Part shown: positions 18,001 through 21,000 of the stretch, one piece after another | Position numbering within the stretch: the stretch's first letter is position 1 | How the letters are laid out: each line of letters starts with the position of its first letter | Program-made: the position numbers | From: a virus | Taxonomy: Duplodnaviria > Heunggongvirae > Uroviricota > Caudoviricetes | Direction: 5' to 3' (one strand) | DNA length: 64,000 nt | IMG/VR virus record: IMGVR_UViG_2703718819_000007

Positions 18001-21000
18001 AGCTTGCTGGAATAAATTTCAATCTTACCGGAAGGTGTTTTAAGTGGATTTGCCTCGGGGTCGTCACGAAATGCTTTGTAGGCGACAAAATGACCATTGG
18101 GATCTTTACGCTTATAGATACCCATTTTTTTCAGTTCGTCGTAAGACGGTAACGCCGGATCTTTGGCAAGCATTTTGGCGTACAGATGTTGTAACCATTG
18201 TTCCTGCGTGCGACCTTCAGTGAACTTTTGATAGACGTCAGGTCCAAGACGTTTCGCGACTTCACTCAGGATCCAGTAAATCGGTTTGCGTTCGAATTTT
18301 TCGCTGGTGACAGGCTGGAGGAAAATGAGATATCCCATGTTACCGGCGTAGTCGTTAGGAATAATATCTTCCTGCTCAACGGTCATCAGGTCTGGCAGCA
18401 GAATGTCGGCATATTTTGCCGATGAGGTCATAAAGTTTTCGATGACCACAATCATTTCGCATTTCGATTCGTCCTGCAGAATTTCATGCGTTTTGTTGAT
18501 GTCAGAATGCTGATTAACGAGGGTATTTCCCGCGTAGTTCCAGATGGACTCCACTGTCAGACGGATGGACGGACTTGAAGTAGTTGACTCAACGCTACTT
18601 AAGGTCCTGATATGACTGACATTAACCATGACAATACTGTATATCCATCCAGTTCTTTCTCTGGGTCTCCCTATCTGTATCAGCAAGTCTACACCTCAAG
18701 TCCTGACACAAGGCTGACACAAATCAACCTACTCGGCGTGGCTTGCTCGCTACTTGCTAAGCCTCAGTTAGTCCGTAGAGCCAATGGTCGATATACTATC
18801 CGCTTCAGACTCAAGGGACAGACCATCCCGTTTCTTTCAGTATCGACCCGAAGCACAGACAGGAGAGTAGCCACAATGCGTCAGAGAGAGCTTGCAGCCA
18901 CAGCTAAGTCCTTCATGTTGGATAGGCCTGATGTCTCGCTACAGGAGCTTACAGAGCACCTCCGGTCTATGGCTGAGCAGTTCCTGACAGACGCTAGTGA
19001 CGATTACTGGAATGGACTTGAGGTCGCTACTTTGGTGGACGAGAAGTCCAACCTGAAGGAGCTAGCCGCTACGCAAGCCTTAAGTCTGGACCAGCAGAAG
19101 GGCATAAGGTTAGCGCTTGAAGTCCTGACCGCAGCACAGCAGAGGGTAGACACTGGTGATACCTCTGGTCTGATTAAGCTGATTGATGATAATAACCATA
19201 CTGATTACTCAACTATAGGCGACTCTACGTCAATTCTGAAGAATGAGCAGGGGGATAGACCAGCAGTTTTCACACAGGAGCCCCAACCTGAGGTCACTAT
19301 CGCTGACCAACCAGCTATCTGTAGTTTTTCTGAGCTAGTGTCCTCGCTGCTGGCTGAGAAGGTCCAGACCCTGAAGTCATCCAGCTACAAGGACCTGTCG
19401 TCCTCACTGAATACCGTCTCTCGGTTCTTACCTGAAGACATGGACCTGATGTCCCGCTCTGAGTGGCTGGCTGTCAGGGACGCTATGCTGGCTTCTGAGG
19501 TGAGACCGTCGACGATTAACAAGCTGCTGACTAAGGCGAAGATGTGTCTTGACTACGGTCTGATGAATGGGCAACTTGAGGGCCGCAACCCTATTGAACG
19601 GATGAAGCTGACCAAGGATATCGACTCCAAGCGCAGAGCGTTCACAGACGAGGAGCTGGAGAGACTTCTGGTCCGTGTTGAGGCTGAGTATCAGTTCACA
19701 CGACACACGGCTCACACGACCTCTGAGGCCCGTAGATGGGCGTCTCTGGTGTCTGTAGTTACTGGCGCTCGGTCTGCTGAGGTCTGCCACCTGACTAAAC
19801 GTGACATTGTAACCTTAGACAATGGACTGGTCTGTATCGACATCAACGAAGATGGGGACGGTAAGTCTGTGAAGAACAAGCATTCAGTCCGACTTGTGCC
19901 GTTGACCGATGGGGCCTGTGGTCTTGACCTGAAGTCCTTCCTCGAATGGGTAGACATGCAGCCTGACGAGGGTCCTCTCTTCGGGATGACTCCAAGCGCA
20001 TACTCTAGCTGGTTTAACTCTAGGGTCCTGACTGAGGCCCTAGGAGACTCTCAGGATGTCTCTCTCCACAGTCTGAGGCATTGGCTGGCGACCCGCATGA
20101 AAGAGCGTGGAGTCAATCTGGTGGATGCTCAGGGCATCTTAGGCCATAGCAGTCAGTCCATTACGTATGACCTGTACGGGAAAGGACATGCAGTCCAGAG
20201 ACTGGCTGAGGTGCTGAAGACAGCTTTACTTTAAGTAGGAAGACCCAAGGTGGAGACCATATACGGCTTGATGGTTGAGACCTTGGGTCACTGAAGTCTG
20301 ACTGAAGTTAGGGAGGGTGATAATAATCATAATCCCTCCTGACTATAGGCCCACTGGTTCGCCTTCGGCTGTCCGACTCTAAGTCTGTCTGTGGTCTTAT
20401 TTAAACTGCGTCCTAAACTCCAGTCCCTCCAAATTCCTATGGTCTCCTCTTGACATTCCTGTTTAACTGTGAGTCGCCTCTGGTCTCTCTTTATATATAC
20501 TTCCTTAATTCCTGAGGCGTCTTTAGTCCTTGACATTCTGTCCAACCTGTGAGTCACATCCGGTCCTCCCTCTTTATATTTACTTCCTTAATTCCTAGGG
20601 TCGCCTTAATCCTTGACATCCAGTCCAGCCTGTGAGTCACATCCTGTCGCGCTACTGTATGCATCACCAGTGGTGGACTTGATTATCACTATAGGGGAAC
20701 CAACTAATTCAACGACAGGAGATACTCTATGGCACGACCAATCGCAACTCACGACAACACGTTCACCAAAGCCTACTTGCAGCAGCACTGCGGGGACCTG
20801 CTGTCATTCGATGGTCAGGGTGACTTGAGTGGCTGGCTGGATGATGTCCTTACTGGTGCTGGTCGCCTGAGCGAATCAATGGCAAGCAATACCAAGCCTG
20901 TCAGCCCATACTTGATTCTGACCCAACTACTAACGCACGACACATTAACTGTAAGCGCTGTGCAGGAGTCCCTGAGCCGTAAGCGTGTTGCCTTGGGTGA

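What the first reader, a model, noticed from the sequence alone, without database searches (positions are those of the whole stretch)
20450..20660. Three tandem ~80-bp repeat units each carrying a perfect TTGACA hexamer
The units begin at 20450, 20530 and 20613, between the integrase and the first phage-type promoter. The layout resembles the tandem strong early promoters (A1-A3) at the left end of T7-like genomes that host RNA polymerase uses. Clear -10 hexamers at canonical spacing are not evident, so these may instead be repeated protein-binding sites.
Basis: seen in the sequence. Interest (0 to 1): 0.5.

Follow-up and report, generated by a model that had tools for sequence, protein, structure and literature searches.

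The report
Tandem TTGACA repeats in T7-type satellite islet
The three repeats are real and conserved, but they are not strong T7-style early promoters; they look like a duplicated control region, probably for host RNA polymerase or a DNA-binding protein, in front of a small E. coli island that appears to be an undescribed parasite of T7-like phages.

Summary
There is a 2.5-copy tandem repeat at 20449-20648 (units of 80 and 83 bp), with TTGACA at 20450, 20530 and 20613. It recurs with 2 or 3 copies in related E. coli and Shigella loci.

Every unit, including those of relatives only 80-84% identical, keeps TTGACA-N14-TGAGTC(A) at fixed spacing around a variable spacer. That gives the geometry of a -35 box, a 17-bp spacer and a TG, but the hexamer in the -10 position is GTCAnn. 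Sigma70 scores for the units (5-7 bits) lie within shuffle noise. Real Kayfunavirus early promoters score 12-12.6 bits. The claim of strong A1-A3-like promoters is therefore not supported; a regulated host-promoter/operator array or an iteron-type origin fits better.

The context is the larger finding. The repeats lie in a 6.7-kb integrase islet inserted in ynfE. The islet carries:
- exact Kayfunavirus RNA-polymerase promoters;
- a conserved element from the phage right end;
- a gp7.3 homologue;
- two LexA-like boxes;
- a phage-like terminal-repeat/concatemer-junction sequence split across its attachment site.

It is probably a satellite of virulent T7-like coliphages. I found no published description of such an element.

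The parts
20449..20528 (+). Repeat unit 1 (80 bp): the core CTTGACA-N14-TGAGTCGCC followed by an AT-rich segment
20529..20611 (+). Repeat unit 2 (83 bp): the core CTTGACA-N14-TGAGTCACA followed by an AT-rich segment
20612..20648 (+). Repeat unit 3, partial: core only, CTTGACA-N14-TGAGTCACA
20450..20475 (+). Conserved two-part element TTGACA-N14-TGAGTC of unit 1. The equivalents in units 2 and 3 are 20530-20555 and 20613-20638. Spacing is fixed at 14 in all units of all relatives while the spacer sequence varies.
20484..20512 (+). AT-rich segment of unit 1 (TCTCTCTTTATATATACTTCCTTAATTCC) with the -10-like hexamer TATACT at 20496-20501. It pairs with TCGCCT at N16 for 6.8 bits.
   Evidence: a homologous single copy in L021 forms TTGGCT-N16-TATACT, 10.7 bits
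20570..20595 (+). AT-rich segment of unit 2 with the -10-like hexamer TATATT at 20575-20580. It pairs with GTCACA at N16 for 7.3 bits.
20653..20672 (+). LexA-box-like sequence TACTGTATGCATCACCAGTG, lying between unit 3 and the first phage promoter
   Evidence: 2 matches in 64 kb, both inside the islet, 0.10 expected; L020 has TACTGTATGTCCATACAGTT at the same place; in L008 the spacer differs while CTGT and CCAG are kept
20677..20699 (+). First Kayfunavirus-type phage RNA-polymerase promoter (predicted +1 at 20694)
20729..21097 (+). ORF1, 122 aa, all-helical with a basic C-terminal half and unknown function. It is inherited as one cassette with the repeat array.
21106..21128 (+). Second Kayfunavirus-type promoter (CCTAAACTATCACTATAGGGAAGAC)
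20311..20339 (+). Hairpin GGAGGGTGATAATAATCATAATCCCTCC. It equals a conserved element that lies between phiOR and gene 19.5 in T7-like phages.
18612..20234 (+). Tyrosine integrase ORF; the true start codon is uncertain
18536..18550 (+). Left copy of the attachment-site core AGTTCCAGATGGACT. The right copy is at 25246-25260. This puts the islet at about 6.7 kb.
18654..18683 (+). Sequence resembling the end of a phage terminal repeat and the concatemer junction (TCTTTCTCTGGGTCTCCCTATCTGTATCAG)
25009..25114 (+). Sequence resembling the phage region just before the terminal repeat and the start of the repeat, including TCTCCCCCATAGCCCCGCCTCAAGTCCAGACC
24369..24611 (+). 80-aa homologue of Kayfunavirus gp7.3, a virion assembly / host-range protein
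18635..18653 (+). Second LexA-box-like sequence, TACTGTATATCCATCCAGT, in the integrase 5' region
   Evidence: a mirrored version in L020 was read

Best explanation
The array is a lineage-specific tandem duplication (2-3 copies) of the host-facing control region that precedes the islet's phage-promoter-driven operon. It is not a set of strong constitutive early promoters.

Each unit carries a selected two-part docking element, TTGACA-N14-TGAGTC(A). Its layout is that of a sigma70 -35 box, a 17-bp spacer and a TG at -15/-14, but it has no usable -10 hexamer. In units 1 and 2 an AT-rich box follows, holding a -10-like TATACT or TATATT 16 nt after the GTC(A/G)C(A/C) part. After unit 3 comes a LexA-type operator.

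Proposed working (inferred, not shown):
- Host RNA polymerase starts only weakly or conditionally here.
- The TTGACA/TGAGTCA element is centred about -44/-45 from the start sites predicted from the AT-rich boxes. It is the site where RNA polymerase and/or a regulator docks; ORF1, which travels with the array as one cassette, is the candidate regulator.
- LexA holds the output down until DNA damage or phage attack.

This would give the islet a helper-independent way to express ORF1 and the genes downstream. That would matter after entry into a new cell or during the SOS response. The adjacent Kayfunavirus promoters take over once the helper's RNA polymerase is present.

Shown: the repeat, the motif conservation, the absent -10, the phage-type promoters and the LexA-like boxes. 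Inferred: who binds, and whether transcription starts here at all.
For: - Motif conservation. TTGACA and TGAGTC(A) keep a fixed 14-nt spacing in nearly all of the 71 units from 27 loci, including relatives only 80-84% identical overall. The exceptions are GTGACA in unit 3 of three loci and TGAGTGG in the last unit of L023. Only about half of the N14 positions are conserved.
- Match to consensus. The left half equals the sigma70 -35 consensus exactly, and the TG falls where an extended -10 TG would lie (reading).
- Position and orientation. The array is co-oriented with the genes and directly upstream of the first phage promoter.
- Other lineages. Two lineages without the array have one sigma70-like promoter at the same place: L006 TTTCCA-N16-TACAAT at 8.9 bits, and L021 TTGGCT-N16-TATACT at 10.7 bits. 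The L021 -10 lies in sequence homologous to the AT-rich segment here.
- LexA boxes. A LexA-like box follows the last unit, and it is a near-perfect box in L020. A second box sits at the integrase 5' end. Both of the only two matches in 64 kb are in the islet (0.10 expected). LexA acts on host-polymerase promoters.
- Cassette inheritance. The array, the first phage promoter and ORF1 are swapped together. Loci L006 and L007 share only the first 200 nt of the intergenic region, then carry a different promoter and a 27%-identical ORF1.
- Context. The islet is T7-like, and T7-like phages place their host promoters at the matching position after the concatemer junction.
Against: - No sigma70-like pair in 20236-20728 exceeds chance. 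The best score is 8.0 bits, against a maximum of 9.3 +/- 1.6 in shuffles. Sequence alone therefore shows no promoter here.
- The TTGACA box and the AT-rich -10-like box are 40 nt apart and cannot form one canonical promoter.
- About half of the lineages have a 20-nt insertion between unit 3 and the LexA box, so that distance is not constrained.
- The distant relative L021 lacks the TTGACA/TGAGTCA element altogether, so it is not essential to the islet family.
- There are no transcript data.
Confidence: 0.4

Rival explanations
1. Replication origin or iteron array. The TTGACA-N14-TGAGTCA cores are iterons for an initiator encoded by the islet or by the helper phage. The AT-rich segments between them are the unwinding elements. 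The adjacent phage promoter supplies transcriptional activation or priming, as at the T7 primary origin. The islet would then be amplified during helper infection.
For: - The layout is repeated cores flanking AT-rich stretches next to a phage promoter. This resembles the iteron/AT-rich origins of SaPI and PICI satellites, and the promoter-plus-AT-rich origin of T7 (established knowledge).
- The core has partial dyad symmetry: TGTGAgTCACA in units 2 and 3.
- Copy number varies between 2 and 3.
- A satellite needs an origin, and none is otherwise identified.
- Plasmids carrying a T7 origin and concatemer junction are packaged by T7 (Chung & Hinkle 1990, as cited in PMC9860248).
Against: - The phage promoter points away from the AT-rich segments.
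- No initiator, primase or helicase was recognisable among the islet ORFs.
- Lineages without the array (L006, L007, L021) must replicate some other way.
- An ~80-bp period is long for iterons.
- T7 primase-type sites in the array (3 against ~0.6 expected, my count) are not independent, because the units are copies.
Confidence: 0.22
2. One reading: three strong constitutive sigma70 early promoters, equivalent to A1-A3 of T7. They would drive early transcription and transcription-coupled entry of islet DNA delivered from a T7-like capsid.
For: - Perfect -35 hexamers, a 17-bp spacer geometry with TG, tandem layout and rightward orientation.
- A position like that of the early promoters in T7-like genomes.
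- A satellite packaged in T7-like capsids would need host transcription to be drawn into a helper-free cell (established T7 entry model).
Against: - The hexamer at the -10 position is GTCGCC or GTCACA in all units and relatives. Both A(-11) and T(-7) are absent.
- The units score 5.2-6.8 bits, against 12.0-12.6 for the EcoDS1 early promoters.
- The consensus scan finds none of the TTGACA sites.
- The units lie about 1.9 kb from the predicted leading end, beyond the ~850 bp that T7 ejects without transcription (established knowledge).
Confidence: 0.08
3. Packaging-related sites: repeated binding sites for the helper's small terminase subunit (pacB-like), analogous to the three R sites of lambda cosB.
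For: - The islet carries other packaging-region mimics, namely the terminal-repeat/junction sequences and the right-end hairpin.
- Small terminase subunits often bind repeated sites (established knowledge).
- Kayfunavirus right ends contain a conserved TTGACT...TGAGTC pair.
Against: - The phage pair lies on the opposite strand with 22-nt spacing, inside a terminator-like hairpin.
- The units show no significant similarity to the ends of any of the three phages.
- The array lies 1.8 kb from the junction-like sequence on one side and 4.4 kb on the other.
- Islet lineages without the array keep the junction mimic.
Confidence: 0.07
4. A functionally neutral recent tandem duplication. One ancestral promoter/operator copy does the work and the extra copies are passengers kept alike by gene conversion.
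For: - Copy number is 2 or 3 and the units recombine. In L004 and L005 all three units share one spacer type. The 2-copy loci are unit 1 plus a unit 2/3 hybrid.
- Related lineages manage with no array at all.
Against: - At least two copies are kept in every array-bearing locus, including L020 and L023 at 80-84% identity.
- The motifs stay intact while the spacers diverge, which points to selection on each copy.
Confidence: 0.1

Closest known systems
Tandem early host promoters A1, A2 and A3 of T7-like phages (annotated at 469, 609 and 764 in Kayfunavirus EcoDS1)
   Same: Several co-oriented TTGACA/TTGACT boxes in tandem. They lie upstream of the first genes, in an element that otherwise uses a phage RNA polymerase.
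   Different: The phage promoters have workable -10 hexamers and score 12-12.6 bits. The islet units have GTCAnn at that position and score 5-7 bits. Spacing is 80-83 bp against 140-155 bp. There is no sequence homology. A LexA-like box follows the islet array.
PICMI satellites of marine Vibrionaceae (PMC10803314)
   Same: Both are integrase-bearing islands of about 6 kb with minimal gene content. PICMIs depend on virulent phages and are packaged as concatemers of helper-genome length. Six copies of this 6.7-kb islet would make about 40 kb, close to the 39-40.5 kb of a Kayfunavirus genome.
   Different: PICMIs integrate next to fis, package by a headful-like route with random ends, and are not reported to carry phage RNA-polymerase promoters or a terminal-repeat mimic. 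Helper dependence of the islet here is inferred, not shown.
T7 transducing plasmids carrying a T7 origin and the concatemer junction (Chung & Hinkle 1990; Pac = PacB + PacC, as summarised in PMC9860248)
   Same: The islet naturally combines phage promoters with a junction-like sequence, the same kind of parts that make a plasmid packageable by T7.
   Different: In the islet the junction-like sequence is split by the attachment site and is contiguous only after excision. Whether it is actually packaged has not been tested.
Iteron/AT-rich origins of SaPI and PICI satellites, and the three R sites of lambda cosB
   Same: Repeated short recognition cores separated by AT-rich DNA, in a mobile element that exploits a helper phage.
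   Different: The period of about 80 bp is much longer. No cognate initiator or terminase gene was identified. The left half of the core equals the sigma70 -35 consensus.
LexA-repressed promoters of mobile elements, such as the CTX-phi rstA promoter and coliphage 186 tum (established knowledge)
   Same: CTGT-N8-(A/C)CAG boxes sit at the two host-facing control points of the islet, the integrase 5' region and the ORF1 operon.
   Different: LexA binding has not been tested. The distance from the box to the nearest promoter-like element varies between lineages: 9, 14 or 34 nt.

Membership tests
Canonical sigma70 promoter | -35 hexamer close to TTGACA | tested here: met
   TTGACA is exact in all three units. 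It is kept in nearly all of 71 units from 27 loci. Three loci have GTGACA in unit 3.
Canonical sigma70 promoter | -10 hexamer resembling TATAAT, with A at -11 and T at -7, 16-18 bp after the -35 | tested here: not met
   The hexamers at N16, N17 and N18 are AGTCGC/AGTCAC, GTCGCC/GTCACA and TCGCCT/TCACAT. None has A(-11). The consensus scan does not report these sites.
Canonical sigma70 promoter | Combined score above what random sequence of the same composition gives | tested here: not met
   Best 8.0 bits in 20236-20728, against a shuffle maximum of 9.3 +/- 1.6. TTGACA pairs score 5.2-6.8 and AT-rich-box pairs 6.8-7.3. The matrix was built from consensus frequencies I recalled (Harley & Reynolds), so the scores are approximate.
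T7-like early promoter cluster (A1-A3) | Strong host promoters within the leading ~1 kb after the terminal repeat, ahead of the early genes | tested here: not met
   The units lie about 1.9 kb beyond the junction-like sequence, with the integrase gene in between. Their strength fails the comparison with the EcoDS1 promoters.
T7-like early promoter cluster (A1-A3) | Transcription by host RNA polymerase in vivo or in vitro | not testable with these tools
   No transcript or biochemical data are available.
Iteron-type replication origin | Several direct repeats of one core next to an AT-rich unwinding region | tested here: met
   Three cores and two AT-rich segments.
Iteron-type replication origin | A cognate initiator gene nearby, and replication starting at the site | tested here: inconclusive
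   ORF1 is inherited together with the array, but no fold could be assigned to it. No Rep, primase or helicase family was hit. Replication itself cannot be tested here.
Phage satellite (context of the array) | An integrated element with its own integrase and att sites that lacks a full set of virion genes | tested here: met
   The element is 6.7 kb with the att core AGTTCCAGATGRACT at both ends. The site is empty in 5113 of 5426 genomes. Only a gp7.3 homologue was recognised among virion genes.
Phage satellite (context of the array) | Cis and trans links to a specific helper phage | tested here: met
   - Kayfunavirus promoters, up to 100% identical over 19 nt and 25-27 nt at 96%.
- The right-end hairpin, 100% identical over 32 nt to phiYIO1-1 and present in 155 phage records.
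- Junction mimic score 86 against a null of 36 +/- 5.6.
- gp7.3 homologue at E about 3e-7.
- GAGTC bias shared with the phages.
Phage satellite (context of the array) | Helper-induced excision, replication and packaging | not testable with these tools
   No circular junction or virion-derived contig was found. The IMG/VR scans gave only chance-level hits plus one E. coli prophage-type record. The islet-sized metagenome contigs end about 55 nt beyond the att sites, as expected for assembly bubbles.
LexA (SOS) operator | CTGT-N8-ACAG dyad with TA-rich flanks, conserved in position across relatives | tested here: met
   The boxes are at 20653-20672 and 18635-18653 (CCAG in the right half). Both of the only two pattern matches in 64 kb lie in the islet, with 0.10 expected. 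L020 has TACTGTATGTCCATACAGTT at the matching place. LexA binding itself was not tested.

The most novel reading that the evidence does not exclude
The islet is a previously undescribed family of satellites of virulent T7-like coliphages (Kayfunavirus here; T3-type promoters in the relative L021).
- It is switched on by the helper's own RNA polymerase through copied phage promoters, and by LexA cleavage.
- Its T7-type terminal-repeat/concatemer-junction packaging signal is split by attP, so the signal exists only after excision.
- It is packaged as a ~6-mer in helper capsids.

In that reading, the tandem TTGACA-N14-TGAGTCA units are its helper-independent control region or origin, using an unusual RNA-polymerase or regulator docking site that mimics a promoter without a -10.
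Probability: 0.4. Interest if true: 0.85.

Novelty: new variant of a known kind. Interest (0 to 1): 0.62.

Why it matters
T7 and its relatives are among the best-studied viruses, and I know of no satellite described for them. My knowledge and seven full-text searches are the basis for that, so it is not proof of absence.

An integrative 6.7-kb element that copies the helper's promoters, its end sequences and one virion gene would show three things. Strictly lytic T7-like coliphages would also have molecular parasites. There would be a natural case of induction by a phage RNA polymerase. A packaging signal could be kept inactive by splitting it across an attachment site.

The repeat array is the element's only obvious interface with host RNA polymerase or a regulator. 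It is therefore the place to test how such an element is expressed when no helper is present. Its promoter-like geometry without a -10 is an unusual, directly testable sequence puzzle.

These phages are used in phage therapy against K1 and APEC E. coli. Strains carrying the islet, about 2-3% of complete genomes, might respond differently to them.

Tried and rejected
- **RNA element.** Rfam found nothing in 18400-25400 at E<=1. Folding the array as RNA gave z = -1.46 on the + strand and +0.34 on the - strand. Rejected.
- **Homology of the units to phage early regions or ends.** Local alignments and word-9 blastn against EcoDS1, phiYIO1-1 and Peacock gave nothing above the shuffle level for the units. 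Only the promoters, the hairpin and the end mimics matched.
- **rc(CTGTGAGTC) = GACTCACAG as a copy of the phage left terminus TCTCACAG.** Dropped once the junction alignment placed the terminus-equivalent at about 25059 (TCTAATACATT), not at the GACTCACAG at 25010.
- **Units as pseudo-att or integrase sites.** The true core is AGTTCCAGATGRACT with an AGTCC/GGACT dyad. The arm-type repeats are TGAC(A/T)CAA. TGACTCA is shared with one arm variant, but TTGACATTC does not fit. Not pursued.
- **Terminase-site idea.** The phage TTGACT-N22-TGAGTC pair is on the other strand, inside a hairpin.
- **IMG/VR scans for the unit.** Six loci matched, but four are unrelated and at the number expected by chance for 17 specified bases.
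- **Metagenome scan for two tandem cores.** It gave 17 true islet loci plus about 14 unrelated tandem arrays with periods of 29-137 bp. That number is compatible with chance among the very many tandem repeats, so I did not use them as evidence.
- **ORF331 structure.** pLDDT 37, unusable. No similarity to T7-type capsid protein or to any PDB sequence. The idea of an own capsid gene is left open.
- **Known E. coli regulator motifs, checked by eye only (no tool run), with none fitting:** CRP, FNR, SlmA, MatP, DnaA, IHF, PhoB and Fur.
- **Literature.** Seven searches found no description of the islet beyond TIGER's listing of ynfE as a gene interrupted by integrative elements.
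Full report
**Observation.** The repeat is real.
- Tandem Repeats Finder reports 20449-20648 with period 83, 2.5 copies and 82% matches.
- The repeat finder gives an 82-nt pair at 84% identity, and a three-copy 37-nt family starting at 20449, 20529 and 20612.
- TTGACA lies at 20450, 20530 and 20613. These are three of only 21 TTGACA on both strands of the 64-kb window.
- The third unit is partial. The structure is core / AT-rich segment / core / AT-rich segment / core.
- No TATAAT-like hexamer lies 16-18 nt after any TTGACA.

**Where it sits.**
- The window is E. coli chromosome, with ynfF, ynfC, rspA and rspB identified.
- A 6.7-kb element interrupts ynfE. Comparison with an intact ynfE gives the att core AGTTCCAGATG(A/G)ACT at 18536-18550 and 25246-25260.
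- 5113 of 5426 complete E. coli genomes have the empty site. 119 genomes match the intergenic region that holds the repeats.
- The element encodes a tyrosine integrase (18612-20234), then the repeat array, then ORFs that all lie on the + strand.
- TIGER had listed ynfE as a gene interrupted by integrative elements (PMC7192596). I found nothing further on this element in seven literature searches.

**The element is tied to T7-like phages of the genus Kayfunavirus.**
- *Promoters.* The promoters at 20684 and 21113 (CCCTAAACTATCACTATAGGGAAGACC) match the annotated phage RNA-polymerase promoters of EcoDS1, phiYIO1-1 and Peacock. Several matches are 100% over 19 nt, and the best run 25-27 nt at 96%.
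- *Hairpin.* The hairpin at 20311-20339 is a conserved element found between phiOR and gene 19.5 in 155 phage records. It is 100% identical over 32 nt to phiYIO1-1.
- *Ends.* The right end (25009-25114) resembles the phage region just before and at the start of the terminal repeat. The left end (18654-18683, TCTGGGTCTCCCTATCTGTATCAG) resembles the end of the terminal repeat and the concatemer junction. It includes the ATCTGT motif that I know as the T7 RNA-polymerase pause signal at the junction.
- *Junction alignment.* Joining right end to left end, as excision would, gives a sequence that aligns colinearly to the phage junction with scores of 86 and 82. The null is 36 +/- 5.6 with a maximum of 57.
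- *Virion gene.* An 80-aa ORF (24369-24611) is a gp7.3 homologue, 36-38% identical at E from 3e-7 to 4e-6.
- *Composition.* GAGTC/GACTC is enriched in the islet (30 against 13 expected), as in the phages (124 against 81). It is depleted in the flanking chromosome (64 against 118).
- *Size.* Six islet copies make about 40 kb, the size of a Kayfunavirus genome.
- *Conclusion for the context.* Together these make a helper-dependent satellite the most likely identity. No excised or encapsidated form was found.

**What is conserved in the units.** I collected 27 loci: complete genomes, Logan contigs and metagenome contigs.
- 17 loci have three units and 10 have two.
- In every unit, including those of L020 and L023 (80-84% identical overall), TTGACA is followed after exactly 14 nt by TGAGTC(A). 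The 14-nt spacer is only about half conserved.
- The exceptions are GTGACA in unit 3 of three loci, and TGAGTGG in the last unit of L023.
- The AT-rich segment (CTCTTTATATATACTTCCTTAATTCC) is also well conserved, but its distance from TGAGTC varies between 16 and 19 nt.
- The unit therefore holds a fixed-geometry two-part element plus a separate AT-rich box.

**Promoter test.**
- The two-part element has the geometry of a -35 box, a 17-bp spacer and TG at -15/-14. The hexamer in the -10 position is GTC(A/G)C(A/C/T), lacking both A(-11) and T(-7).
- I scored the region with a log-odds scan built from recalled consensus frequencies, so the values are approximate:

| Candidate | Score (bits) |
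|---|---|
| TTGACA-based pairs in the units | 5.2-6.8 |
| TCGCCT-N16-TATACT (AT-rich box, unit 1) | 6.8 |
| GTCACA-N16-TATATT (AT-rich box, unit 2) | 7.3 |
| Best pair anywhere in 20236-20728 | 8.0 |
| Maximum in shuffles of that region | 9.3 +/- 1.6 |
| EcoDS1 early promoters (at 609 and 764) | 12.6, 12.0 |

- The claim of strong early promoters therefore fails, and sequence alone does not establish any promoter here.

**Evidence that the region still faces host RNA polymerase.**
- Lineages lacking the array have a single sigma70-like promoter at the same spot. L006 and L007 have TTTCCA-N16-TACAAT at 8.9 bits. L021 has TTGGCT-N16-TATACT at 10.7 bits, and its -10 lies in sequence homologous to the AT-rich segment here.
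- A LexA-box-like sequence follows unit 3 (20653-20672). L020 has a near-consensus box, TACTGTATGTCCATACAGTT, at the same place. In L008 the inner spacer differs while CTGT and CCAG are kept.
- A second LexA-like box lies in the integrase 5' region (18635-18653).
- These are the only two matches to TACTGTATN6MCAGT in 64 kb, with 0.10 expected.
- LexA regulates host-polymerase promoters, so host transcription is expected to start close by. However, the distance from the box to the unit varies (9, 14 or 34 nt), so the exact promoter cannot be fixed.

**Cassette behaviour.**
- L006 and L007 share the first 200 nt after the integrase gene. They then switch to a different upstream region, a variant phage promoter (AACTATCACCCTAGGAGAG) and an ORF1 only 27% identical.
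- L020, L023 and L021 each have yet other phage-promoter variants. L021 has T3-type promoters.
- The array therefore travels with ORF1 and the first phage promoter as one module.
- ORF1 is helical with a basic C-terminal half. No fold could be assigned to it. It has only hypothetical homologues in phiEco32-like, 7-11-like and Aeromonas phages.

**Interpretation.**
- I favour, at about 0.4, a duplicated promoter/operator region. Host RNA polymerase would read weakly or conditionally through it into the ORF1 operon, gated by LexA and probably by a protein that binds the TTGACA-N14-TGAGTCA element.
- That element is centred at about -44/-45 from the starts predicted from the AT-rich boxes, which would suit a class II-type activator or a repressor overlapping the -35.
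- An iteron/AT-rich origin is the main rival (0.22).
- The literal A1-A3 reading (0.08), terminase sites (0.07) and neutral duplication (0.10) are less likely.
- RNA-level roles are not supported.

**Novelty and verdict.** The repeat itself is a new variant of familiar control or iteron arrays. Its interest comes from two things: the promoter-like geometry without a -10, and its host, an apparently undescribed satellite-like islet of T7-type coliphages. The closest described analogue is the PICMI family, which shares the small size, a virulent helper and concatemer packaging. PICMIs lack phage promoters and end mimics.

Noticed in passing
window 18536-25260: The integrase belongs to a 6.7-kb islet inserted in ynfE. 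Its att core, AGTTCCAGATGRACT, is present at both ends. The islet has no DNA match in 50,697 phage records at E<=1e-5, yet it shares short cis elements with Kayfunavirus.
   Followed up: yes
window 25009-25114 and 18654-18683: The two islet ends together resemble one phage terminal repeat plus concatemer junction, with the attachment site and arm repeats inserted in the middle. The packaging-type sequence would be contiguous only after excision.
   Followed up: partly
window 20311-20347; L012 40046-40077; L013 38754-38784; L011 38634-38657: The conserved right-end hairpin lies in one orientation in EcoDS1 and Peacock and in the inverted orientation in phiYIO1-1. The islet matches the inverted form at 100%. 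This looks like the two orientations (flip and flop) expected of a palindromic element.
   Followed up: no
window 18635-18653 and 20653-20672: There are two LexA-box-like sequences, one at the integrase 5' region and one before the first phage promoter. They are the only two matches in the 64-kb window. The islet may be SOS-responsive.
   Followed up: partly
window 24369-24611: An 80-aa ORF is homologous to T7-group gp7.3, a virion assembly / host-range protein. It is followed by a small hydrophobic ORF (about 24851-25003) in the position that gene 19.5 holds in the phages.
   Followed up: partly
window 18701-18722 and 25158-25203: Direct repeats of TGAC(A/T)CAA, two on the left and four on the right, flank the att core. 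They are candidate integrase arm-type sites.
   Followed up: no
window 18577-18599; L020 about 45-67: A stem-loop AAGTAG-TTGACTCAACG-CTACTT lies next to attL. In L020 it reads AAGCAT-...-ATGCTT, with three positions changed on both sides so that pairing is kept.
   Followed up: no
window 21126-21488: A 360-nt ORF-free stretch lies directly after the second phage promoter and is conserved in relatives. It is not AT-rich and has no Rfam match. It could be an RNA or the origin.
   Followed up: no
L006/L007 6199-6300; L020 2030-2060; L023 6950-6985; L021 2150-2175 and 2750-2775: Islet lineages carry different phage-promoter variants: CACCCTAGGAGAG, CACTTTAGGAACG, CCCTCACCGTTAGAGAAC, and T3-type AATTAACCCTCACTAAAGGGAGA. 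This suggests each lineage is matched to a different helper RNA polymerase.
   Followed up: partly
L002-L005, L008, L009 (between unit 3 and the LexA-like box): About half of the lineages have a 20-nt insertion, CTAGCAAGCTAGCTGTCGCG. It contains the palindrome GCTAGCAAGCTAGC and duplicates CTGTCGCG.
   Followed up: no
L020, L029, L041, L046, L053: Five independent metagenome or Logan contigs of 6.6-6.9 kb consist of the islet plus about 55 nt (less in L020) of flank on each side. The likely cause is assembly bubbles from mixed occupied and empty ynfE alleles, so they are not proof of excision.
   Followed up: partly
L025, L026, L030, L031, L033, L034, L036, L037, L039, L044, L047, L048, L050, L052: Unrelated environmental contigs hold tandem arrays, with periods of 29-137 bp, whose units also contain TTGACA-N14-TGAGTC. 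The number found is compatible with chance, but spacer-only variation within some arrays is curious.
   Followed up: no
window 22804-24366: A 163-aa ORF with a charged coiled-coil-like centre and a 331-aa ORF are the conserved core of all lineages, found in E. coli, Shigella, Citrobacter koseri and Rouxiella. No family or fold could be assigned (AF2 pLDDT 37; no similarity to T7-type capsid protein).
   Followed up: partly
window islet against flanks: GAGTC/GACTC is about 2.3-fold over-represented in the islet and 1.5-fold in Kayfunavirus genomes, but about 2-fold depleted in the flanking chromosome.
   Followed up: yes
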